DNA from: a virus | Lineage: Duplodnaviria; Heunggongvirae; Uroviricota; Caudoviricetes | Virus record (IMG/VR): IMGVR_UViG_2563366827_000005 | DNA length: 33,965 nt | Reading direction: 5' to 3' (one strand) | Shown here: piece after piece, positions 1-33,965 of the stretch | How the letters are laid out: each line of letters starts with the position of its first letter | How positions within the stretch are numbered: the stretch's first letter is position 1 | Notes under the pieces: generated by a model | Database searches by the model: none | What the model was told of the DNA's origin: nothing | The model's input: the letters and a program-made list of their open reading frames with translations, nothing else | Position numbers and translations under genes: made by a program

Positions 1-1362
1 ATGTTTAAACCGGAACTCCTTTCCCCGGCGGGAACGCTGAAAAATATGCGTTACGCTTTCGCTTATGGCGCAGATGCTGTTTATGCGGGCCAGCCGCGTT
101 ATTCCCTGCGTGTGCGCAACAACGAATTCAACCACGAAAATCTTCAGCTCGGCATCAATGAAGCCCACGCGCTGGGGAAAAAGTTTTATGTCGTGGTCAA
201 CATTGCACCGCACAACGCCAAGCTGAAAACCTTTATCCGTGACCTGAAACCGGTGGTGGAAATGGGGCCGGATGCGCTGATTATGTCCGATCCAGGGCTG
301 ATTATGCTGGTGCGTGAGCACTTCCCTGAAATGCCGATCCACCTTTCGGTGCAGGCTAACGCCGTGAACTGGGCGACGGTGAAATTCTGGCAGCAAATGG
401 GCCTGACCCGCGTGATCCTCTCTCGCGAGCTGTCGCTGGAAGAGATTGAAGAGATCCGCAATCAGGTGCCGGATATGGAGATCGAGATCTTCGTTCACGG
501 CGCGCTGTGCATGGCCTACTCCGGTCGCTGCCTGCTCTCTGGCTATATCAACAAGCGCGACCCGAACCAGGGCACCTGCACCAACGCCTGCCGCTGGGAG
601 TACAACGTCCAGGAAGGGAAAGAAGATGATGTTGGCAACATCGTACACAAGTACGAGCCGATTCCGGTGCAAAATGTTGAGCCGACGCTGGGTATCGGCG
701 CACCAACCGACAAAGTGTTTATGATCGAAGAGGCCCAGCGTCCGGGCGAGTATATGACCGCGTTTGAAGATGAGCACGGCACTTACATCATGAACTCGAA
801 AGATCTGCGCGCCATCGCCCATGTAGAACGCCTGACCAAAATGGGCGTGCATTCGCTGAAAATCGAAGGTCGTACCAAATCTTTCTACTATTGTGCACGC
901 ACCGCACAGGTTTACCGCAAAGCTATCGATGACGCCGCTGCGGGAAAACCGTTCGATACCAGCCTGCTGGAAACTCTGGAAGGTCTGGCGCATCGTGGCT
1001 ATACCGAAGGTTTCCTGCGTCGTCATACTCACGACGATTATCAGAACTACGAATACGGTTATTCAGTTTCTGACCGCCAGCAGTTTGTTGGTGAGTTTAC
1101 CGGTGAGCGCAAGGGGGACCTCGCGGCGGTAGCGGTGAAAAATAAATTCTCCGTTGGCGACAGCCTTGAGCTGATGACGCCGCAAGGCAACATTAATTTT
1201 ACCCTTGAGCACATGGAAAACGCCAAAGGCGAAGCTATGCCGATAGCACCAGGCGATGGTTATACTGTGTGGCTCCCGGTCCCGCAGGATCTTGAGCTCA
1301 ATTACGCGCTGCTGATGCGTAATTTCTCCGGGGAAACCACGCGTAATCCCCACGGTAAGTGA
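1..1362 (+). CDS. yegQ: U32-family peptidase-like protein YegQ (tRNA hydroxylation-associated), host gene, complete
   Basis: 453-aa ORF starting MFKPELLSPAGTLKNMRYAFAYGADAVYAGQ, recognised as enterobacterial YegQ; GC-rich host-like composition; lies outside the att repeat. Confidence 0.85.
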   Translation: MFKPELLSPAGTLKNMRYAFAYGADAVYAGQPRYSLRVRNNEFNHENLQLGINEAHALGKKFYVVVNIAPHNAKLKTFIRDLKPVVEMGPDALIMSDPGLIMLVREHFPEMPIHLSVQANAVNWATVKFWQQMGLTRVILSRELSLEEIEEIRNQVPDMEIEIFVHGALCMAYSGRCLLSGYINKRDPNQGTCTNACRWEYNVQEGKEDDVGNIVHKYEPIPVQNVEPTLGIGAPTDKVFMIEEAQRPGEYMTAFEDEHGTYIMNSKDLRAIAHVERLTKMGVHSLKIEGRTKSFYYCARTAQVYRKAIDDAAAGKPFDTSLLETLEGLAHRGYTEGFLRRHTHDDYQNYEYGYSVSDRQQFVGEFTGERKGDLAAVAVKNKFSVGDSLELMTPQGNINFTLEHMENAKGEAMPIAPGDGYTVWLPVPQDLELNYALLMRNFSGETTRNPHGK

Positions 1363-1506: not shown

Positions 1507-1534
1507 AATCTCCCTTACACGGGCTTATTTTTTA
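1507..1534. other. Prophage attachment site core (attR, ogr-proximal); 28-bp perfect direct repeat of 33463..33490
   Basis: aatctcccttacacgggcttatttttta occurs identically at both prophage ends; its reverse complement matches the P2 att core AAAAAATAAGCCCGTGTAAGGGAGATT as I recall it. Confidence 0.8.
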
Positions 1535-3591: not shown

Positions 3592-6039
3592 TTAACCGTC
3601 ATGCATCATGCTGGCACGGGCGCGCGCACGTTTATCCCGCTCGTATTTTTCGAGCGCATCCTGTAACTGGCGGTCAAGCGGTGTCCCCGGCGCAGTACCG
3701 CCCGTCAGGCTGATGTGATATTCGTTTTTACTCTGGTCCACATAAGAGCGGCCAGCCGGTGCCGTGACCGGCTGATAAGCCTGATAACCTGCATAAGAGC
3801 TGGTCGCCGGAATATAACCACCGCTGCCATACGTGGCGGCTTGAGTTCTGGCGGCGGTCTGGTCAAGTGTGCCTGACTCTTTGTTGATGACGCCGAGTTT
3901 TTCCAGTACCCAGTCAATACCGCCGCGCAGTTTGTTGAACGCATTAAGCGGCAGCATCAGCGCGTCAGCCAGTGCCTGCCCGAACATGACGCCCGTGTCA
4001 CGGCAACGGTTCAGGGTGTCCTGGGTGGCTTTGACCGGGGCAATCAGGTTTTTAAACCACTGCCACGCGGCCTGTAACTTTTCACCCAGCCAGTCAAACA
4101 CCGGCTTAAGTGGCGTGAACAGTTCCCCCACTGGCGCAAATGCTGCTTTCAGCCCTTCAACCACACCGCCAAAGAATGCGCTGACAGGCTCCCAGTATTT
4201 ACGGATAAGCAACGCCCCGGCGACAATGGCGGCCACCACAGCCACAACCGGCCAGCTAATCGCCCCGATGGCCGTCATAACAGCACTGCCAACCGTCGTG
4301 AAGATTGCCCCCATTGCGCCTGCTGCCGCGATGATGGCATTAATGCCGGTGATAACCGGCCAGGCTACAAGACCAATTGCACCGATGATGCCAATAAGCG
4401 CCAGTGCGCCACCGACAATAAGGCCGATGGTTGACGCCAGTGATTTGTTTTTCTGGATCCAGCCGTCGAGTTTTAACACATACTTTGTGGCCGTCTGCGT
4501 GAGATTACGCAGTGCGCCTTCCTGCTGGTCAAACAGGTCAGTCCCCACCGCCTCATAAGCAGACTGAAACTCCTTAAAGTCACCGCCTAGGTTGTCCTGC
4601 ATGATATTTACCAGCTCGGCGGTCTTCCCGTCTGAGGCTTTAAACGCAGCGGTCAGTTTGTCCAGCTTTCCGGTTGAGGCGGCAGTCATCAGCACGGCGG
4701 CGGCTGAGCTGGCCTCCTCCCCGAAAATAGTTTTCATGTATTCAGCCTGCTGGGCAGTACCGAGCCGGTTTTTCTCAAAACTGGCCTGCATTTCTTTCAG
4801 AATGGTAAATATTGGCCGGGTGTTTCCCTTGCTGTCTGAGGTTTTCACTCCAAGCTCTTTGAGTGCATCCCATGCTTTTCCCGTCGGTGCCTGCAGGCGG
4901 CTTAACACGGCACGGCTTCCCGTCCCCGCCATTGAGCCTGTGATTTTTGCATCATGCAGCGCCCCGACCATTGCGGCGGTTTCTTCAATGCTGACACCGG
5001 CATTTTTTGCCACAGGTGCGGCATAGGTCAGCGCATCGCTCATGCCGTCAAAATCGGCGGCGGTTTTGTTCATCGTCATGGAGAGAACATCCCCGATATG
5101 AGCGACCTTATCGTTTGAAAGCTGAAAGGCGGATTTCATCCCCATCAGCAGGGCGGCGTTTTCTTCCATCGTGCGGCGGTTCGCCAGCGCCATATTCAGC
5201 GTGACCGGCGTTGCCGCCTGAATGGCATCAACATCCCCACCCGCTTTCGCGATGATTATCTGTGCACCGGCCGCATCATCCGCCGAGGCGGCGGTATTGT
5301 CGCCGAGCTGGCGCGCCTGTTTGCGTAGTGCGGTCATTTCGGCGGAGTCTTTTGCCACTCCGAGCACGGCCTGCAATTCTGAGTTTTTCTGCGCAAACTC
5401 ATAACCGGGCATCAGCAACTTAACTCCGGCCATCGTTCCCGCCGCCGCAATCCCCACACCGGCAGCGCCTACTGAGGCCATATTTCCGGCCAGTTCCTTT
5501 CCGGCCTGATAACGCTGTTTGACTGCGTTAAGTTTTGCCTGTTGCGCACTGACACGCGCCAGCGCGTCGCGCTGACGGTTAAGCTGTGCGGTGGTTTCAC
5601 TGATACGGTTTTTCAGTCCCTGCTCATCATGTGCAAGATTGCGGGTATTAATTCCCACAGCGGCCAGTTCCCGCTGCTGGCGTTTAACGGAATCCGTCAG
5701 GCGGTTATATTTCGCCTGTAAGTCCTCCGCCGCTCGCTTTGCGGATTCCAGCACTTTCGCCTGAGCACTGGTCGGACGTTCGGTGTTTTTAAACTGTGTG
5801 GCAAGGGCTTCGGCTTCCTGCCGTGCCTTTTCAAGTGCATGACCAGTCACGGCGAGCTGCGCACTGGTCTTGCGAAATCCCTCAATACGGGATGCGTGAC
5901 CGTTCAGCTCGCGCAGTGATTTTTGTGTTTCCCGGATATCCCCCGACAGCGACTTGCTCACTGTGCGGATGGATTTAAACGGGCGGGATGCCTGGTCAAC
6001 AGCCCTGAGCAATACCTGTAATTTTACATTGTTACTCAT
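3592..6039 (-). CDS. T: Tail tape measure protein T
   Basis: 815 aa, Ala/Gly-rich with hydrophobic central segment, coiled-coil N-terminus; P2 gpT length and position. Confidence 0.9.
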   Translation of the reverse strand: MSNNVKLQVLLRAVDQASRPFKSIRTVSKSLSGDIRETQKSLRELNGHASRIEGFRKTSAQLAVTGHALEKARQEAEALATQFKNTERPTSAQAKVLESAKRAAEDLQAKYNRLTDSVKRQQRELAAVGINTRNLAHDEQGLKNRISETTAQLNRQRDALARVSAQQAKLNAVKQRYQAGKELAGNMASVGAAGVGIAAAGTMAGVKLLMPGYEFAQKNSELQAVLGVAKDSAEMTALRKQARQLGDNTAASADDAAGAQIIIAKAGGDVDAIQAATPVTLNMALANRRTMEENAALLMGMKSAFQLSNDKVAHIGDVLSMTMNKTAADFDGMSDALTYAAPVAKNAGVSIEETAAMVGALHDAKITGSMAGTGSRAVLSRLQAPTGKAWDALKELGVKTSDSKGNTRPIFTILKEMQASFEKNRLGTAQQAEYMKTIFGEEASSAAAVLMTAASTGKLDKLTAAFKASDGKTAELVNIMQDNLGGDFKEFQSAYEAVGTDLFDQQEGALRNLTQTATKYVLKLDGWIQKNKSLASTIGLIVGGALALIGIIGAIGLVAWPVITGINAIIAAAGAMGAIFTTVGSAVMTAIGAISWPVVAVVAAIVAGALLIRKYWEPVSAFFGGVVEGLKAAFAPVGELFTPLKPVFDWLGEKLQAAWQWFKNLIAPVKATQDTLNRCRDTGVMFGQALADALMLPLNAFNKLRGGIDWVLEKLGVINKESGTLDQTAARTQAATYGSGGYIPATSSYAGYQAYQPVTAPAGRSYVDQSKNEYHISLTGGTAPGTPLDRQLQDALEKYERDKRARARASMMHDG

Positions 6040-6459
6040 TCGTGTTTCCGCTTCGCCGGAGCGCCTTTTCGCGCCATGTGATGAGTTCGGTCAGGCTCAT
6101 GGGATACAGTTCTGATGGCGGCCAGTGAAATATCACTGCCACATCCGCCATCAGGTCATCGACCGAGAGATTTTTCGGAAACGTCACTGCACCGAGTTCG
6201 GCGACAAAAAACCAACCACCTTACCGGCCAGCGCCACAAGGTCAGGCAGTTCCAGCGCGGCGACTTCCTGCTCGGTCAGCATCGGTGCCGTCATGCGCGG
6301 CAGCACTTTAATCAGTGCATCGACTTCGGAGTTCGCGACTGCAGCCAGACTGACACCGCGCAGCGTCCCGGCATTGGGTTTCATCAGCGTGACCTGTTCG
6401 ATAACCTGCTCACCACGTTTGACCGGATTGTCCAAGGTAATGACGTTTTCTTTGTTCAT
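6032..6459 (-). CDS. Tail assembly chaperone E+E' fusion produced by programmed -1 ribosomal frameshift
   Basis: Hand translation of the -1 frame from the slip site gives ...GFF-VAELGAVTFPKNLSVDDLMADVAVIFHWPPSELYPMSLTELITWREKALRRSGNTNE-stop, total 142 aa, ending at TAA 6032..6034 and overlapping the T start by 8 nt. Confidence 0.75.
6184..6459 (-). CDS. E: Tail assembly chaperone E (in-frame product)
   Basis: 91 aa ending ...KVVGFLSPNSVQ; slippery TTTTTTG lies near its 3' end; P2 gpE length. Confidence 0.85.
   Translation of the reverse strand: MNKENVITLDNPVKRGEQVIEQVTLMKPNAGTLRGVSLAAVANSEVDALIKVLPRMTAPMLTEQEVAALELPDLVALAGKVVGFLSPNSVQ
6205..6211 (-). promoter_or_regulatory. Slippery heptamer T-TTT-TTG (minus strand) for the E/E' -1 frameshift
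   Basis: caaaaaa on + strand equals TTTTTTG on the coding strand, in the GGT-TTT-TTG (G-F-L) context near the end of E. Confidence 0.75.
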
Positions 6460-6515
6460 GGTTTTCTCACTTCTGAATCGGGGTTAACCGGTCAGCCAGG
6501 CTGACCGGATGAAAA

Positions 6516-7034
6516 TCACAGGCCGATATTGCGGCGGTGTTGCTCCAGCCGGTCGACGCCGTTCACCTTCTCAATCATGTTGATGGTGTCGATTTCGACC
6601 AGCTCCTTACCGTCCATCGTCAGCCGGAAATAGGTGCAGACCACGGAGATTTTCGACTCGGTGTCTTCTCCCTGTTTGCCCTCGCCGGTGTCGATTTCTT
6701 TCTGACGTCCACGCATGACCACCTCGACGGCCACCGTTTCGCCGGTATCGTCGCGCTGGTAAGAGCCTGCAAAACGAATCGGTACGGCATCCACACCGGT
6801 TGCGGCGTAAAGCTCCCAGATAACCGAATCCGGGAAACCACCGAGCGACCACTCCATTGACAGCGCATCGTCATCAAGGCCGAGGTCTACCGGTGCGCTG
6901 CCGTTCATCCCCGCACCGCGATAGTTTTCGAGCTTACGGGTCAGTTTTGGCAGCGTGACGGACTTTGCAACGCCCTGATAGCTGTAGCCGTTCAGAAAGA
7001 CGTTCATTAACTTGAGTTTGCGCGGCATTGCCAT
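6516..7034 (-). CDS. FII: Tail tube protein FII
   Basis: 172 aa, P2 gpFII length and synteny. Confidence 0.85.
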   Translation of the reverse strand: MAMPRKLKLMNVFLNGYSYQGVAKSVTLPKLTRKLENYRGAGMNGSAPVDLGLDDDALSMEWSLGGFPDSVIWELYAATGVDAVPIRFAGSYQRDDTGETVAVEVVMRGRQKEIDTGEGKQGEDTESKISVVCTYFRLTMDGKELVEIDTINMIEKVNGVDRLEQHRRNIGL

Positions 7035-8680: not shown

Positions 8681-9166
8681 TTACCAACCTCGCTCTTTAA
8701 GCCTTTGCTGCACATGTGATGCTGTCATTTTTAGAATATCAGGTAGAATAATTTCATTACCTTGAGAAGGTTGAAACGAGGCATTACGATTGGCAAAGAG
8801 GTCATGAAACCTAGTGTCTGATGTAATCATGACGGGAAGATTGTTATATCCCCGGTCGTTGAACTGATCTGCAGTCAAATCAACAATCATTCCATCCACG
8901 ACAAGCCAAGCATGTGAATTACCGTTTGAAAGACCGCTGGCGGGGGACTTATGATCAGATTCATAGTAATATCCTGCGAGTACTTCAGAGACTATCCCGA
9001 ATTGCTGATAAAGCAAATAAGCAAGCAGTTTCGATGTATCCCCGCAGCATCCCACTGGAAAGTTCGAATTTCTAAAGGATGACAGCCGTGAATGATCTTT
9101 TTTGGTCATCTTCTCAAGTGCTTCACGCACATCAACACAAAAAATTTTTAACTCATCTTGATTCAT
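8681..9166 (-). CDS. Cargo gene 2: small protein with transglutaminase-like (papain-fold) Cys-His-Asp signature; function unknown, candidate effector
   Basis: 161 aa; motifs VGCCGDTSKLLAYLL (Cys40/41 at a helix start), NSHAWLVVDG (His85) and IVDLTAD (Asp) match the TGL-superfamily pattern GxCxx[FY]A ... HAWxEV ... D[PA]T; AT-rich; ATG with AAGGT Shine-Dalgarno. Confidence 0.45.
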   Translation of the reverse strand: MNQDELKIFCVDVREALEKMTKKDHSRLSSFRNSNFPVGCCGDTSKLLAYLLYQQFGIVSEVLAGYYYESDHKSPASGLSNGNSHAWLVVDGMIVDLTADQFNDRGYNNLPVMITSDTRFHDLFANRNASFQPSQGNEIILPDILKMTASHVQQRLKERGW

Positions 9167-9252: not shown

Positions 9253-10038
9253 TCAAATAGGATTAAAACGTAGCGCAAATTCTCCATATTTTTTTTCAGC
9301 CCGATGAAACTTCACATGGCTTAGACCATTTTCACTACATATATTTTTGATTTTTGCAATATCCTGTTCCAGCGTTTTCAAACCAAAAAAAACATCAGTT
9401 ATTGCCTCTGGCTTAATCTTATAGGCTCCAATATTACTTTTATAAACTCTAATCTCCTCTTCATAATTCCAATCCATTGATTTCGTAGAGAGTGTGTCGA
9501 GTATTGATTTTTTAGGGTCTCTAAGATAATTTAATGGAATATATTGCTTCATATATACTATGTTTTGGGGGGTTATAAAGAACTCTGGATCCTTAGCAAT
9601 ATTGAGTTTTATAGCAACTCCGGTATGGTTCTCCGCATAATGAGACCATAAAAGAACATTTTCATTAGTTTTAGATAGCGATAAAATGCCATGGGCATTG
9701 ACGGCATTTGTTTTTATATTTTTAACTAGATCATTAAATGCTTGGCTGTTTTCTTTATACACATCTATTAAGTTCTGCTTTGCCTTCTTGGTTAATCCAT
9801 TCTGATATGAATATAACCAACAAGTAAAGTCTGATAAAGAGTATTCTTTTTCCTCATCCAGCATACAATCAAATGGATCATTAAAATTTTCCGCTGATGA
9901 AAAGTAAAATTCTTTTTTTTGAAGAATATCACAGGCTTTATCTATAGTTCTGAACTTGTAAACTGATTCTGGGTAGGTGCCTTCATTTATTCCTTTAAGG
10001 ATTAAATCTTTTTTATCCAACCATCTTATTCCTGACAT
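9253..10038 (-). CDS. Cargo gene 1: DUF2971-family protein; function unknown
   Basis: 261 aa from the ATG at 10038, preceded by a strong SD (AAGGAGG, about 7-nt spacer); the ORF-track start at 10059 is a TTG. Motifs VYKFR...FYFSSAENFNDPFD and LSLSKTNENVLLWSHYAENHTGVAI match what I recall as DUF2971 hallmarks. AT-rich. Confidence 0.5.
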   Translation of the reverse strand: MSGIRWLDKKDLILKGINEGTYPESVYKFRTIDKACDILQKKEFYFSSAENFNDPFDCMLDEEKEYSLSDFTCWLYSYQNGLTKKAKQNLIDVYKENSQAFNDLVKNIKTNAVNAHGILSLSKTNENVLLWSHYAENHTGVAIKLNIAKDPEFFITPQNIVYMKQYIPLNYLRDPKKSILDTLSTKSMDWNYEEEIRVYKSNIGAYKIKPEAITDVFFGLKTLEQDIAKIKNICSENGLSHVKFHRAEKKYGEFALRFNPI

Positions 10039-10368
10039 TTGATTCCTCCTTATTATCAATAACTTTCATTGGTCTTTTCGCACCACAATTTTAGACTAAA
10101 CACAATGCAAATCAACATGATTGTAGTGTCGGTGATTGTCTTACTGGTCACCAGATACTATACCGCTAAGATCAGATTAAAGGGAATGATTCTTTATTAT
10201 GTAGCAAACTTTAGAGGCCGGGAGTAATCGTGGGTAGCTCTGTTACACTGTTATAATGGGTTAGCATAGCCCATGTGATCAACGCCCGCTTTTGGCACAG
10301 AGCGGACTGTCAGATTAGGCTTTACTCTGTGCCATAGATATGTAAGCTCACACCAGAGTTCATACAAC

Positions 10369-25073: not shown

Positions 25074-27290
25074 ATGGAACTTAGATTAAAAAATGTTACC
25101 AGTTATAAGAAAGACGCCTTCACAATACTGAATCTTGAAAAAAGAGTAAACATACTATACGGCCAAAATGGTTGTGGCAAATCTACCATTTCAAATTATT
25201 TCTACGACTCTACACACACAGATTATAACGAGTGTGAATGTACCCTTCTTGACAATTACAAACCTCTTGTTTACAACACTAAATTTATTGAAGATAATTT
25301 CTACAATGCACAGGAACAAAAAGGTGTTTTTACATTAAGTAAAGAAAATGCAGATATTGAAAAACAATTAATTGAAAAAGAAGCAATTAAACAGCAACTT
25401 ACAGAGCAATATAGACAAAAAAAAGGAGTGTTATTGAAATTAGAAGCAGAAATGGAAAAAAAAGAAAATGAATACATCGAATCGATCTGGAAAAAAACAG
25501 AACCAATCAGAAACTCTGTACTAAAAACCTTAATGAAAGGTAAAGTTGGCTATAAAAGACCTTTTTTTGAGATGATAAAATCATCCTCACCAATCACCTT
25601 TATTAATTTAAATGATATAGCAAAAGAATACTCTATACTATTAGAAAATAGAAACAATGAAACCGCATTAATAACTCCTTTACATCCATATACCCCATCA
25701 ATTGATGATGTAAATACATTAGCAACACCTATAATAGATACAAGCAATAGCTATTTATCAGAAACCATTAATAAACTTCATAATCTTGACTGGGTAAAAA
25801 AAGGTAAAGAACATTATTTAGACGGTTCTACATGTCCGTTTTGTCAGGAAAAAACTATTAGTCACGAATTTTTAAATGCCCTTAAATCAATATTTGACGA
25901 AAGTTATTCAAAGAAAGTAAAACAGCTCTCAGATATAAAGTCAGTTTATGAGAAAAATACCATATATCATTTTAACGAAATACAAAACAATATATCATCA
26001 TGTGCACTAATCAATGAGAAAGATAAAGAGATCATTATTTCCAATATTAAAATATTGCAAAACATTGCAGAAAAAAATTTAATAAACATTATTGATAAGA
26101 TCAACAATCCATCAACATGCGTTACATTAGAAATTGATAAAGAACTAGAAAATCATGTTCAGGAAAGCATAGACGCTGTTAACAAAAAAATAAGAGACAT
26201 AAATGATAAGGTTAAAAAACTCAAAGAGTATGAGAATAAAATCGGAAAACAAGTTTGGGGGGCTCTCCATGCTTTTTGCAGCGATGATTTAGAGAATTTA
26301 TCCAAACACAAAGAAAAATTCTTTGATATCAAAAAGAAAGTTCATGATGAATTAAATAATATTGAGCAACAAGGAAAAGAAAATAATCTCACAATAAAAG
26401 CATTGCGAGATAAAATATCTAACATTGATTCTACGATAGACTCAATAAACACCCATTTAAAAAATCTAGGGATCTCTGGTTTTTGTATTGAAAAACATGC
26501 AGAAAGAAAAGATATGTACATTATATCTCGACCAGGGCATACAAAAAACCAAAATGTTTATAGATCTCTTAGCGAAGGTGAAAAAACACTAATAACGTTT
26601 CTTTATTTTTTAGAGTGCTGTAAAGGTAAAACCGATAAAAATGATACCGATAGCAGGGATATTTTTATTGTTATTGACGATCCAATATCTAGTCTATCGC
26701 AAAACTATGTCTACGACATCGCATCAATTATTCATCACCACATTATAAAAAATGAATCAACAAAGAAGGTATTAATCCTTACTCACAATCTTTATTTCTT
26801 TCATGAACTTATTAAGCTATCTCCTAAAAGCAGAGAAGACAAACTATTTAAGAAAAACTATTATCTAGGTAGAGTAACGAAAAATGATTTTAGTATAATT
26901 ACTGAAATACAAAAAAACAGCATACAGAATGAATATCAATCTTTGTGGCAAATATTAAAAGATGCAAAAGATGGCAAAGCAAACAAAATCATAATACCTA
27001 ATATTATGAGAAACATACTAGAATATTATTTTGCATTTGTTCATAGAACAGATGCTCTACAAGATGAATTAACAAAGTTGGCACGCGACGATAGCAACAG
27101 TGATTTCAAAGCATTCTACAGATACATTAACAGAGGTTCTCACTCTGATGCGGTAAATATTACTGATATGGGCGACATAGACCCAGATAAATACCTAAAA
27201 CAATTGAGAACAATATTTTCAGCTACTGGTGACGAAATGCATTATTTAAAAATGATGGACGAACTAGAAGAGGAGAACGTTACCGCTTAG
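25074..27290 (+). CDS. Cargo gene: ABC/Rad50-like ATPase with long coiled-coil insert (CxxC) and C-terminal PrrC/RloC-like putative anticodon-nuclease domain; candidate single-gene anti-phage protein
   Basis: 738 aa; Walker A GQNGCGKST (aa 30-38), about 460-aa Lys/Glu-rich insert with CPFC (aa 254-257), ABC signature LSEGEK (aa 499-504), Walker B IFIVIDD (530-536), D-loop SSLS, H-loop LILTHN, C-terminal RNILE (646-650) and RYINRGSH (683-690); no Toprim motifs; strongly AT-rich; occupies the tin/old position. Confidence 0.55.
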   Translation: MELRLKNVTSYKKDAFTILNLEKRVNILYGQNGCGKSTISNYFYDSTHTDYNECECTLLDNYKPLVYNTKFIEDNFYNAQEQKGVFTLSKENADIEKQLIEKEAIKQQLTEQYRQKKGVLLKLEAEMEKKENEYIESIWKKTEPIRNSVLKTLMKGKVGYKRPFFEMIKSSSPITFINLNDIAKEYSILLENRNNETALITPLHPYTPSIDDVNTLATPIIDTSNSYLSETINKLHNLDWVKKGKEHYLDGSTCPFCQEKTISHEFLNALKSIFDESYSKKVKQLSDIKSVYEKNTIYHFNEIQNNISSCALINEKDKEIIISNIKILQNIAEKNLINIIDKINNPSTCVTLEIDKELENHVQESIDAVNKKIRDINDKVKKLKEYENKIGKQVWGALHAFCSDDLENLSKHKEKFFDIKKKVHDELNNIEQQGKENNLTIKALRDKISNIDSTIDSINTHLKNLGISGFCIEKHAERKDMYIISRPGHTKNQNVYRSLSEGEKTLITFLYFLECCKGKTDKNDTDSRDIFIVIDDPISSLSQNYVYDIASIIHHHIIKNESTKKVLILTHNLYFFHELIKLSPKSREDKLFKKNYYLGRVTKNDFSIITEIQKNSIQNEYQSLWQILKDAKDGKANKIIIPNIMRNILEYYFAFVHRTDALQDELTKLARDDSNSDFKAFYRYINRGSHSDAVNITDMGDIDPDKYLKQLRTIFSATGDEMHYLKMMDELEEENVTA

Positions 27291-33462: not shown

Positions 33463-33490
33463 AATCTCCCTTACACGGGCTTATTTTTTA
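33463..33490. other. Prophage attachment site core (attL, int-proximal); direct repeat of 1507..1534
   Basis: Identical 28-bp sequence 80 bp beyond the int stop. Confidence 0.8.
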
Positions 33491-33647: not shown

Positions 33648-33965
33648 TCACTCTCCACATTTGAATGTCAGACGAGCGACGCCATGTAATCCTGCACCTT
33701 CTGTCTTCAGGTCAACTATCTGCATTTTTTTGCCCTGAGTAACACAGAAATGGGCTGCATCATTTTTTACTATATTTTCTGCACCAGATATTCTGCCCCT
33801 GGCTAAAGAAGCTTCGGCTTCGGTGTAGTATTGGTTATCGAGTTTACGCTGAATATTACTTTTATATGCAAGACCAAATTTACCGATACTTGTCTCATCA
33901 TTATGCACAGCACAACCAGACATAATAAAAATACTAATTAATGATATAGCAGCTATCTTTTTCAT
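33648..33965 (-). CDS. yegR: Small lipoprotein, host gene (YegR-like by length and neighbourhood)
   Basis: 105 aa with signal peptide and lipobox (IFIMSGC); outside the att repeat; symbol assigned from synteny with yegQ and length only. Confidence 0.5.
   Translation of the reverse strand: MKKIAAISLISIFIMSGCAVHNDETSIGKFGLAYKSNIQRKLDNQYYTEAEASLARGRISGAENIVKNDAAHFCVTQGKKMQIVDLKTEGAGLHGVARLTFKCGE

What the first reader, a model, noticed from the sequence alone, without database searches (positions are those of the whole stretch)
6032..6459. Conserved programmed -1 frameshift generating E+E' is intact and visible
The coding strand has T-TTT-TTG in the G-F-L codon context near the end of E. Hand translation of the -1 frame runs for a further 57 codons and stops 8 nt inside the tape-measure gene T, giving a 142-aa fusion. 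This mirrors the known P2 E/E' and lambda G/GT strategy.
Basis: partly seen in the sequence, partly recalled or inferred. Interest (0 to 1): 0.4.

Follow-up and report, generated by a model that had tools for sequence, protein, structure and literature searches.

The report
Known P2 E/E' tail-chaperone frameshift
This is the well-known programmed -1 ribosomal frameshift that lets phage P2 make two tail-assembly chaperones (gpE and gpE+E') from one start codon; it sits intact in a P2-type prophage of E. coli and is ordinary.

Summary
On the minus strand, gene E (6459..6184, 91 aa) contains the in-frame heptamer T_TTT_TTG (6211..6205, codons GGT TTT TTG = G-F-L). The -1 frame then runs 57 codons to TAA at 6034..6032, 8 nt inside the tape-measure gene T (ATG at 6039). 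The fusion is 142 aa.

The window is a P2-type prophage of E. coli. The E/E' region differs from phage P2 (AF063097) at 9 of 451 aligned bases. It is 100% identical from the slip site to the start of T. The P2 record annotates exactly this position as "site of -1 translational frameshift".

The -1 product hits Pfam Phage_P2_GpE (1.2e-21). In 18 relatives, most from Peduoviridae genera, E' is always in the -1 frame of E, with a slippery heptamer in the overlap. The T6 run is the only invariant stretch nearby. In 72 close alleles the heptamer never varies, and polymorphism falls on third codon positions of the E' frame.

I found no significant stimulatory RNA structure and no conserved independent start for E'. 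The locus occurs in 1555 of 5426 complete E. coli genomes.

Verdict: real, correctly interpreted, already known, low interest.

The parts
6184..6459 (-). Gene E. It encodes the 91-aa tail assembly chaperone gpE, the product of standard 0-frame translation.
   Evidence: ORF list and translation. Pfam PF10109 Phage_TAC_7 at 2.6e-12, 47 bits against a cut-off of 25. PHROG 103 'tail protein' at 2.6e-45.
6205..6211 (-). Slippery heptamer T_TTT_TTG (last base of GGT, then TTT, then TTG). This is the site of the -1 shift.
   Evidence: Located by script. It is identical to the site annotated in P2 AF063097. It is the only in-frame X_XXY_YYZ motif in the 37-nt E/E' overlap. It is invariant in 72 close alleles. 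T6 is the only fully invariant run within about 40 nt across 15 diverse relatives.
6032..6205 (-). E' is the -1 frame extension. It has 57 codons plus the TAA stop at 6034..6032 and is read only after the shift.
   Evidence: Translation. Pfam PF06528 Phage_P2_GpE at 1.2e-21 on fusion residues 104-139. PHROG 1756 at 1.4e-28. Third-position excess of polymorphism in this frame: [4,4,14], p=0.011, and [15,8,30], p=0.0008. The other two frames of the segment carry 2 to 5 stops.
6032..6459 (-). Full E+E' coding span. It gives the 142-aa frameshift fusion gpE+E'.
   Evidence: Fusion built. 141 of 142 residues match the P2 fusion. tblastn finds both halves, in two frames, in 401 phage records.
6221..6223 (-). 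TAA stop in the -1 frame, four codons upstream of the heptamer. It sets the 5' limit of the stretch in which a productive shift can occur.
   Evidence: The -1 translation starts 'GGWFFVAEL' at 6220. The overlap of 37 nt was computed. The same 37-nt figure is published for P2 (PMC3931495).
3592..6039 (-). Gene T, the 815-aa tape measure protein. Its first 8 nt overlap the end of E'. It is the presumed client of the two chaperones.
   Evidence: ORF. Pfam PF10145 PhageMin_Tail at 2.4e-45. It has the same length and position as P2 T.
6516..7034 (-). Gene FII, the tail tube protein, immediately upstream of E. It completes the diagnostic order: tube, chaperone pair, tape measure.
   Evidence: Pfam PF04985 Phage_tube at 2.3e-60. 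Matches the P2 annotation.

Best explanation
This is the E/E+E' tail-assembly chaperone pair of a P2-type (Peduovirus) prophage, expressed through a programmed -1 ribosomal frameshift.

Most ribosomes translate E to its TGA and make the 91-aa gpE. A minority slip back one base while decoding T_TTT_TTG. The P-site tRNA-Phe re-pairs from UUU to UUU, and the A-site tRNA-Leu re-pairs from UUG to UUU. Those ribosomes continue in the -1 frame for 57 codons and make the 142-aa gpE+E'.

Both proteins share the N-terminal chaperone domain (Phage_TAC_7). Only the fusion carries the conserved C-terminal GpE domain.

By analogy with lambda gpG/gpGT, the shared domain coats the tape measure protein gpT, and the extension recruits tube subunits. 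The fixed slip frequency would then set the E : E+E' ratio needed for tail assembly.

Shown here: the sequence anatomy, identity with the annotated P2 site, conservation of the frame relation and heptamer, and purifying selection on E'.
Taken from the literature: that the P2 site really frameshifts and that E' is essential.
Inferred by analogy: the chaperone mechanism.
For: 1. Anatomy is exact.
2. Identity with P2: 9 differences in 451 aligned bases, none from the heptamer to the T start. P2 AF063097 annotates E, E+E' and the frameshift site there.
3. Domains: the E part is PF10109 and the -1 part is PF06528 at 1.2e-21. The genes are flanked by tube (FII), sheath (FI), tape measure (T), U and D.
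4. Breadth: tblastn with the fusion finds 418 phage records, and 401 of them cover at least 80% of it as two pieces in different frames.
5. Frame relation: in 18 fetched relatives, down to about 35% identity and mostly from Peduoviridae genera, E' is in the -1 frame of E in every one. A slippery heptamer lies in the overlap. It is TTTTTTG in 14 of the 18. The variants are TTTTTTT, TTTTTTC, A_AAT_TTT and G_GGA_AAG.
6. Wobble base: the preceding codon varies (GGT, ACT, CTT, AGT) but its last base stays T. T6 is the only invariant run nearby.
7. Population data: in 72 close alleles the heptamer is invariant and both frames are intact. Polymorphism is concentrated at third positions in E ([12,6,40]) and in E' ([4,4,14]).
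8. Literature: PMC3091744 and PMC3931495 restate the P2 facts. PMC5009743 describes the lambda G/GT mechanism.
Against: No direct evidence of the fusion protein exists for this particular prophage. Expression and slip frequency cannot be measured in silico.

No stimulatory element was found. The downstream fold has z=-0.9. The consensus fold has almost no covariation. Rfam gives nothing. The basis of the slip efficiency therefore stays unexplained, although this agrees with what is reported for P2.

UUG-to-UUU re-pairing of tRNA-Leu is imperfect at the wobble position. Single-tRNA (P-site) slippage, which would put Phe at the junction, is therefore not excluded.

The primary paper (Christie et al. 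2002, PMC135442) was not available in the library. Its experimental results are cited second-hand or from my memory.
Confidence: 0.94

Rival explanations
1. Transcriptional slippage. RNA polymerase stutters on the T6 template run and adds one U to a fraction of mRNAs. Ordinary translation of those mRNAs then gives E+E', with the junction GFFVAE.
For: The site is a homopolymeric run of six T. That run, rather than just the heptamer rule, is invariant in 15 relatives. Smp131 has T7. The sequence data here cannot separate an RNA-level event from a ribosome-level event at this locus.
Against: Six residues is short for efficient bacterial RNA polymerase slippage (my general knowledge). Two relatives with homologous E and E' use non-homopolymeric heptamers: A_AAT_TTT in P88_4B11 and G_GGA_AAG in PHL101. 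These fit tandem tRNA slippage and do not fit polymerase stuttering. The P2 site is annotated and described in the literature as translational.
Confidence: 0.04
2. Independent initiation. E' would be a separate small gene (51 aa) translated from the GTG at 6187..6185, which is how many pipelines annotate it. No frameshift would be involved.
For: A GTG-initiated ORF at 6187..6032 exists. PGAP and many phage records annotate a separate 'GpE family phage tail protein' or 'hypothetical protein' here.
Against: No Shine-Dalgarno-like motif precedes the GTG. The GTG is not conserved, since 186, Kp4886-2 and others lack it. Three relatives (Arsenophonus, Vibrio MAR, PHL101) have no start codon at all in the relevant part of the E' frame. 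The frame relation and heptamer are conserved instead. P2 E' is reported to lack a ribosome-binding site (PMC3931495).
Confidence: 0.015
3. Coincidence or non-functional remnant. A T-run and an open -1 frame would occur by chance in a decaying prophage.
For: The heptamer alone is common, with 26 copies in the window. About 9% of positions have a -1 frame open for at least 57 codons. A terminator-like pattern overlaps the T-run (6232..6211), but such matches are at chance level, 2 found against 1.5 expected.
Against: The -1 product has a Pfam hit at 1.2e-21. Conservation of the frame relation is 19 of 19 including the window. The heptamer is invariant across 72 alleles, with third-position polymorphism in E'. 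All neighbouring tail genes are full length.
Confidence: 0.005

Closest known systems
Bacteriophage P2 gpE / gpE+E' (GenBank AF063097; Christie et al. 2002, J Bacteriol 184:6522)
   Same: It is the same gene pair. The heptamer TTTTTTG, the 91-aa and 142-aa products, the 37-nt E/E' overlap, the 8-nt overlap with T and the FI-FII-E-E'-T-U-D order all match. Sequence from the slip site to the T start is 100% identical.
   Different: There are nine nucleotide substitutions in E upstream of the slip site. Eight are synonymous and one changes an amino acid (N29 here, S29 in P2). The element is an integrated prophage next to yegQ/trhP, and its cargo in the variable regions differs from P2.
Phage 186 H (orf51/orf52) and other Peduoviridae E/E' pairs (KS5, KS14, KL3, Smp131, Fels-2-like)
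   Same: Homologous E and E' domains. E' is in the -1 frame, a T-rich heptamer sits at the aligned G-F-L position, and the genes lie between tube and tape measure (PMC3091744; PMC3931495).
   Different: Protein identity is 35-80%. A few relatives use other heptamers (T7, TTTTTTC) or have moved the slip site (A_AAT_TTT in P88_4B11, G_GGA_AAG in PHL101).
Phage lambda gpG / gpGT tail assembly chaperones
   Same: The strategy and gene position are the same. Two products share an N terminus, made by a low-frequency -1 shift near the end of the gene between the major tail gene and the tape-measure gene. Their fixed ratio is needed for tail assembly, and neither product is in the virion (PMC5009743).
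   Different: There is no detectable sequence relationship, and no lambda chaperone Pfam family was hit. Lambda uses G_GGA_AAG, builds a non-contractile tail, and has a ratio of about 30:1. My recollection of the Christie 2002 abstract is roughly 10% shifting in P2.
E. coli dnaX -1 frameshift (A_AAA_AAG with an upstream Shine-Dalgarno-like element and a downstream hairpin)
   Same: Both are bacterial -1 tandem slippage on an X_XXY_YYZ heptamer that gives two products with a fixed ratio.
   Different: No significant downstream hairpin is present. The upstream SD-like TAAGGTGGT lies only 3 nt from the heptamer, not about 10 nt as in dnaX (dnaX spacing from my knowledge), and it is not conserved outside the enteric group. 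In dnaX the shift leads to early termination, not an extension.

Membership tests
P2-type E / E+E' tail assembly chaperone pair (Peduoviridae) | The upstream ORF belongs to the gpE chaperone family (Pfam PF10109 Phage_TAC_7) | tested here: met
   E=2.6e-12, 47 bits against a cut-off of 25, covering residues 7-85. PHROG 103 at 2.6e-45.
P2-type E / E+E' tail assembly chaperone pair (Peduoviridae) | The -1 frame extension carries the GpE domain (Pfam PF06528 Phage_P2_GpE) | tested here: met
   E=1.2e-21, 76.3 bits against a cut-off of 23, on fusion residues 104-139. PHROG 1756 at 1.4e-28.
P2-type E / E+E' tail assembly chaperone pair (Peduoviridae) | In-frame slippery heptamer (T_TTT_TTG in P2) inside the short E/E' overlap | tested here: met
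   The heptamer lies at 6211..6205 in X_XXY_YYZ register. It is the only such motif in the 37-nt overlap and is identical to the site annotated in P2.
P2-type E / E+E' tail assembly chaperone pair (Peduoviridae) | Position between the tail tube gene (FII) and the tape measure gene (T) in the FI-FII-E-E'-T-U-D operon, with E' overlapping the start of T | tested here: met
   Pfam assignments for the sheath, tube, tape measure, U and D genes. The overlap with T is 8 nt. The order is the same as in the P2 record.
P2-type E / E+E' tail assembly chaperone pair (Peduoviridae) | E' has no translation start of its own | tested here: met
   The GTG at 6187 has no SD-like motif upstream and is not conserved. 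Three relatives have no start codon in that part of the frame. The same is reported for P2 (PMC3931495).
P2-type E / E+E' tail assembly chaperone pair (Peduoviridae) | The fusion protein is actually produced at a set fraction of E and is essential for tail assembly | not testable with these tools
   This needs protein detection and genetics. It was shown for P2 by Christie et al. 2002, which the library does not hold. I infer it here from sequence identity across the slip site and E'.
Conserved tail-assembly-chaperone frameshift of dsDNA tailed phages (lambda G/GT type; Xu, Hendrix and Duda 2004) | Two overlapping ORFs between the major tail gene and the tape measure gene, the second in the -1 frame, joined at a slippery sequence | tested here: met
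   The rule is described in PMC3091744 and PMC5009743.
Lambda gpG / gpT sequence families | Sequence homology to lambda gpG or to the T domain | tested here: not met
   The Pfam scan of E and the fusion returned only PF10109 and PF06528, and no lambda chaperone family. The relation to lambda is functional analogy, not family membership.
dnaX-type stimulated -1 frameshift | A downstream stem-loop at about 5-9 nt and an upstream SD-like element at about 10 nt | tested here: not met
   The downstream 85 nt fold at z=-0.90, and 39 of 200 shuffles fold at least as well. The consensus fold of 9 relatives has a covariation term of -0.39 and one compensatory pair. The SD-like TAAGGTGGT is 3 nt from the heptamer and is lineage-restricted.

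The most novel reading that the evidence does not exclude
The most novel reading the evidence does not exclude concerns the flanking sequence. No RNA structure is detectable, so flanking primary sequence might tune the slip frequency. Two candidates stand out. One is the near-perfect anti-SD complement TAAGGTGGT (6223..6215), 3 nt upstream of the heptamer. The other is the recurrent 3' context NTG-CCG-AAG seen in distant relatives. Alternatively, the event may be P-site-only slippage or partly transcriptional, which would put Phe rather than Leu at the junction. Either result would refine the mechanism of a textbook case. It would not reveal a new kind of system.
Probability: 0.12. Interest if true: 0.2.

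Novelty: already known. Interest (0 to 1): 0.05.

Why it matters
Scientifically it adds little. The P2 E/E+E' frameshift was shown experimentally in 2002, and it is the myovirus counterpart of lambda G/GT. This window carries the same site, unchanged.

The practical value is for annotation. The same locus is present in 1555 of 5426 complete E. coli genomes, and automated pipelines usually call E' as a separate small gene or 'hypothetical protein' instead of a joined CDS. Recognising the heptamer allows the 142-aa product to be annotated correctly.

An intact E/E' pair is also one small indicator that the prophage tail module is not degraded.

Tried and rejected
- **Downstream stimulatory structure.** A single-sequence fold of the 85 nt after the heptamer gave z=-0.90. 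A consensus fold of 9 relatives showed essentially no covariation. An Rfam scan at E<=1 gave only two sub-threshold chance hits on the opposite strand. Rejected.
- **Terminator-like hairpin plus T-run overlapping the slip site (6232..6211).** The stem has 5 G-U pairs out of 8, it is not conserved in 186, and the number of hits is at shuffle expectation. Rejected as chance.
- **Independent GTG start for E'.** No SD and not conserved. Rejected.
- **Antisense ORFs on the plus strand (6115..6504, 129 aa; 6125..6487, 120 aa).** The 129-aa ORF (6115..6504) gave no NCBIfam or PHROG hit; the nested 120-aa ORF was not scanned. I treat both as shadow ORFs of E.
- **NCBIfam.** It gave no hit for E or the fusion, so it was uninformative.
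- **Solved structures.** No PDB entry matches by sequence.
- **Primary paper.** Christie et al. 2002 could not be retrieved by DOI or PMC id.
- **Distant-relative locus search.** The first attempt, with a 17-sequence alignment, failed for lack of a conserved block. A 5-sequence alignment worked but returned only close relatives. I used those for population-level polymorphism instead.
- **Structure prediction.** Not attempted.
Full report
**1. The observation**

The genes of this region lie on the minus strand. Gene E is 6459..6184 and encodes 91 aa, MNKENV...GKVVGFLSPNSVQ*.

The heptamer TTTTTTG occupies 6211..6205. Its first T is the last base of codon GGT, followed by TTT and TTG. This is the X_XXY_YYZ register over G-F-L.

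Re-reading G6205 in the -1 frame gives 57 further codons and a TAA at 6034..6032. The tape-measure gene T starts with ATG at 6039, so the -1 frame ends 8 nt inside T. The fusion is 142 aa.

The -1 frame is closed by a TAA at 6223..6221, only four codons upstream of the heptamer. A productive shift can therefore occur only within a 37-nt stretch (6220..6184). TTTTTTG is the only in-frame slippery heptamer inside it.

**2. Is it more than chance?**

Taken alone, no. TTTTTTG occurs 26 times on the two strands of the window. About 9% of positions in long open frames have a -1 frame open for at least 57 codons.

The context settles the question:
- The -1 product matches Pfam PF06528 (Phage_P2_GpE) at 1.2e-21, and the 0-frame part matches PF10109 (Phage_TAC_7) at 2.6e-12.
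- The flanking genes are sheath (FI), tube (FII), tape measure (T), U and D.
- PHROGs agrees, with tail-protein families 103 and 1756.

**3. What the window is**

The window is a P2-type prophage of E. coli in reverse orientation.
- A 28-bp direct repeat, AATCTCCCTTACACGGGCTTATTTTTTA, at 1507..1534 and 33463..33490 marks the attachment sites.
- The left flank is the host gene yegQ/trhP, 100% identical to E. coli chromosomes.
- ogr, D, U, T, E/E', FII, FI and the remaining late genes follow. The replication gene A and the integrase lie at the right end.

The best phage matches are Peduovirus genomes at about 96% identity.

The E/E' region differs from P2 (AF063097) at 9 of 451 aligned bases. 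All nine lie in E upstream of the heptamer. From the heptamer to the start of T the two sequences are identical. At the protein level 141 of 142 residues match, the exception being N29 here and S29 in P2.

The P2 record annotates E, a joined CDS E+E' ('shares amino terminus with gpE; -1 frameshift; essential tail protein') and a 'site of -1 translational frameshift' at this position.

**4. Comparative test**

A tblastn search with the 142-aa fusion finds 418 phage records. In 401 of them at least 80% of the fusion is covered by two pieces in different frames.

I fetched 18 relatives:
- P2 and P22H1.
- 186, plus relatives from Klebsiella, Yersinia, Burkholderia and Stenotrophomonas.
- Relatives from Ralstonia, Pseudomonas, Halomonas, Arsenophonus and Aeromonas.
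- P88-like, Vibrio MAR, and relatives from Acidovorax, Mannheimia and Salmonella.

Their identity to the window protein goes down to about 35%.

In all 18, the E' homologue is in the -1 frame of the E homologue, and an in-frame slippery heptamer lies in the overlap:

| Heptamer | Relatives |
|---|---|
| TTTTTTG | 14 of the 18 |
| TTTTTTT | Smp131 |
| TTTTTTC | Vibrio MAR |
| A_AAT_TTT | P88_4B11 |
| G_GGA_AAG (the lambda heptamer) | PHL101 |

The codon before the heptamer varies (GGT, ACT, CTT, AGT) but always ends in T. Across 15 sequences the T6 run is the only fully invariant stretch within about 40 nt.

The E' peptides share the motif D..AD.A.IFHW.P......L.EL..WR..A..RSG.

**5. Population data**

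Eighty close relatives from IMG/VR gave 72 usable alleles of the 428-nt E-E' segment. All keep TTTTTTG, and both reading frames are intact.

| Region and allele set | Polymorphic sites at codon positions 1, 2, 3 | p |
|---|---|---|
| E, upstream of the slip (69 closest alleles) | 12, 6, 40 | 4e-8 |
| E', downstream of the E stop, read in the E' frame (69 closest alleles) | 4, 4, 14 | 0.011 |
| E', wider set (72 alleles) | 15, 8, 30 | 0.0008 |

Against 186 and Kp4886-2, the E' frame has no stops and the highest amino-acid identity. The other two frames carry 2 to 5 stops. E' is therefore translated and under purifying selection.

**6. How it most likely works**

The conserved route into E' is the heptamer. 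The GTG at 6187 that many pipelines use as a start has no Shine-Dalgarno-like motif and is not conserved. Three relatives have no start codon at all in that part of the frame. Published descriptions of P2 say the same (PMC3931495).

The best-supported mechanism is tandem -1 slippage on U_UUU_UUG. tRNA-Phe re-pairs from UUU to UUU, and tRNA-Leu re-pairs from UUG to UUU.

I found no stimulatory structure:
- The 85 nt downstream fold no better than shuffles (z=-0.90).
- A consensus fold of nine relatives has a covariation term of -0.39.
- Rfam gives nothing meaningful.

This agrees with the reported absence of such structures in P2 and in the Burkholderia relatives (PMC3091744).

The function of the two products is inferred from the lambda G/GT system, not shown here. 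In that model the shared domain binds the tape measure protein, and the frameshift-encoded domain recruits the tube protein (PMC5009743). The slip frequency of about 10% in P2 is my recollection of the Christie et al. 2002 abstract, which I could not retrieve.

**7. Rivals**

- **Transcriptional slippage on T6** would give the same frame. It cannot be excluded from sequence at this locus. It fits poorly with relatives that use non-homopolymeric heptamers.
- **Independent initiation and coincidence** are both contradicted by the comparative data.
- **A terminator-like pattern** overlapping the T-run is weak, unconserved and at chance frequency.

**8. Comparison with the known, and novelty**

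This is a member of the P2 E/E+E' family. More precisely, it is an allele of the P2 genes themselves. It works like lambda G/GT but does not belong to lambda's sequence families. It lacks the stimulators that define dnaX-type sites.

Nothing here is new. The locus occurs in 1555 of 5426 complete E. coli genomes, where PGAP annotates E' as a separate 'GpE family phage tail protein'.

Noticed in passing
window 1507..1534 and 33463..33490; flanks 1..1362 and 33648..33965: A 28-bp direct repeat, AATCTCCCTTACACGGGCTTATTTTTTA, brackets the element, so the window is a complete P2-type prophage of about 32 kb. It is integrated next to the E. coli gene yegQ/trhP (peptidase U32 family). That flank is 100% identical to E. 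coli chromosomes.
   Followed up: partly
window 25074..27290 (+): A 738-aa AAA_13 ATPase (Pfam 3.9e-111) matches the PADLOC candidate defence family PDC-S06 at 6.9e-255. It sits between the Q/cos end and replication gene A, which is the variable old/tin position of P2. It is probably an anti-phage cargo gene.
   Followed up: partly
window 9253..10059 (-) and 8681..9166 (-): A 268-aa DUF2971 protein matches PADLOC candidate PDC-S31 at 3.4e-46. Next to it is a 161-aa ORF with only a weak YunG hit. Both lie between the sheath gene FI and the tail-fibre genes, the second variable position of P2 (Z/fun). This is probably another cargo or defence locus.
   Followed up: partly
window 6508..6488 (-), between the FII stop (6516) and the E start (6459): A perfect 9-bp stem with a 3-nt loop, CCGGTCAGC-CTG-GCTGACCGG. 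The 61-nt segment containing it (6520..6460) folds at z=-2.76. The homologous position in phage 186 is annotated 'tI; partial terminator of pJ transcript'. It could lower expression of E, T, U and D relative to sheath and tube.
   Followed up: partly
window 6223..6215 (-): TAAGGTGGT matches the ideal Shine-Dalgarno sequence TAAGGAGGT at 8 of 9 positions and lies 3 nt upstream of the slippery heptamer. It also contains the -1 frame TAA. GAGGT- or AAGGT-like sequence recurs there in several relatives but coincides with conserved K/E-V codons. The spacing is not that of the dnaX stimulator. Its significance is unknown.
   Followed up: no
relatives L014 (P88_4B11), L017 (Mannheimia PHL101), L008 (Smp131), L015 (Vibrio MAR): The slip site is not fixed across the family. 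P88_4B11 has A_AAT_TTT. PHL101 has G_GGA_AAG, the lambda heptamer, downstream of an acidic insertion. Smp131 has T7 and Vibrio MAR has TTTTTTC. Several of these records do not annotate E' at all.
   Followed up: partly
window 6204..6190 (-) and the homologous positions in L006-L018: The bases just 3' of the heptamer are unusually similar in distant relatives, with consensus .tGccGAag.cGg. This may reflect double coding (L/M/V-P-K in frame 0 and x-A-E-x-G in frame -1) or a primary-sequence effect on slippage.
   Followed up: no
E. coli RefSeq genomes and phage records homologous to window 6032..6187: Automated annotation (PGAP 'GpE family phage tail protein'; 'hypothetical protein' in many phage records) treats E' as a stand-alone gene instead of a joined frameshift CDS. 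This affects about 1555 complete E. coli genomes.
   Followed up: partly
L072 (IMGVR_UViG_2695420821_000010, second E copy): One IMG/VR contig carries a second E copy whose E' frame breaks off at an ambiguous base (X in translation) and continues into unrelated sequence. This looks like an assembly join or gap, not a natural disruption.
   Followed up: no
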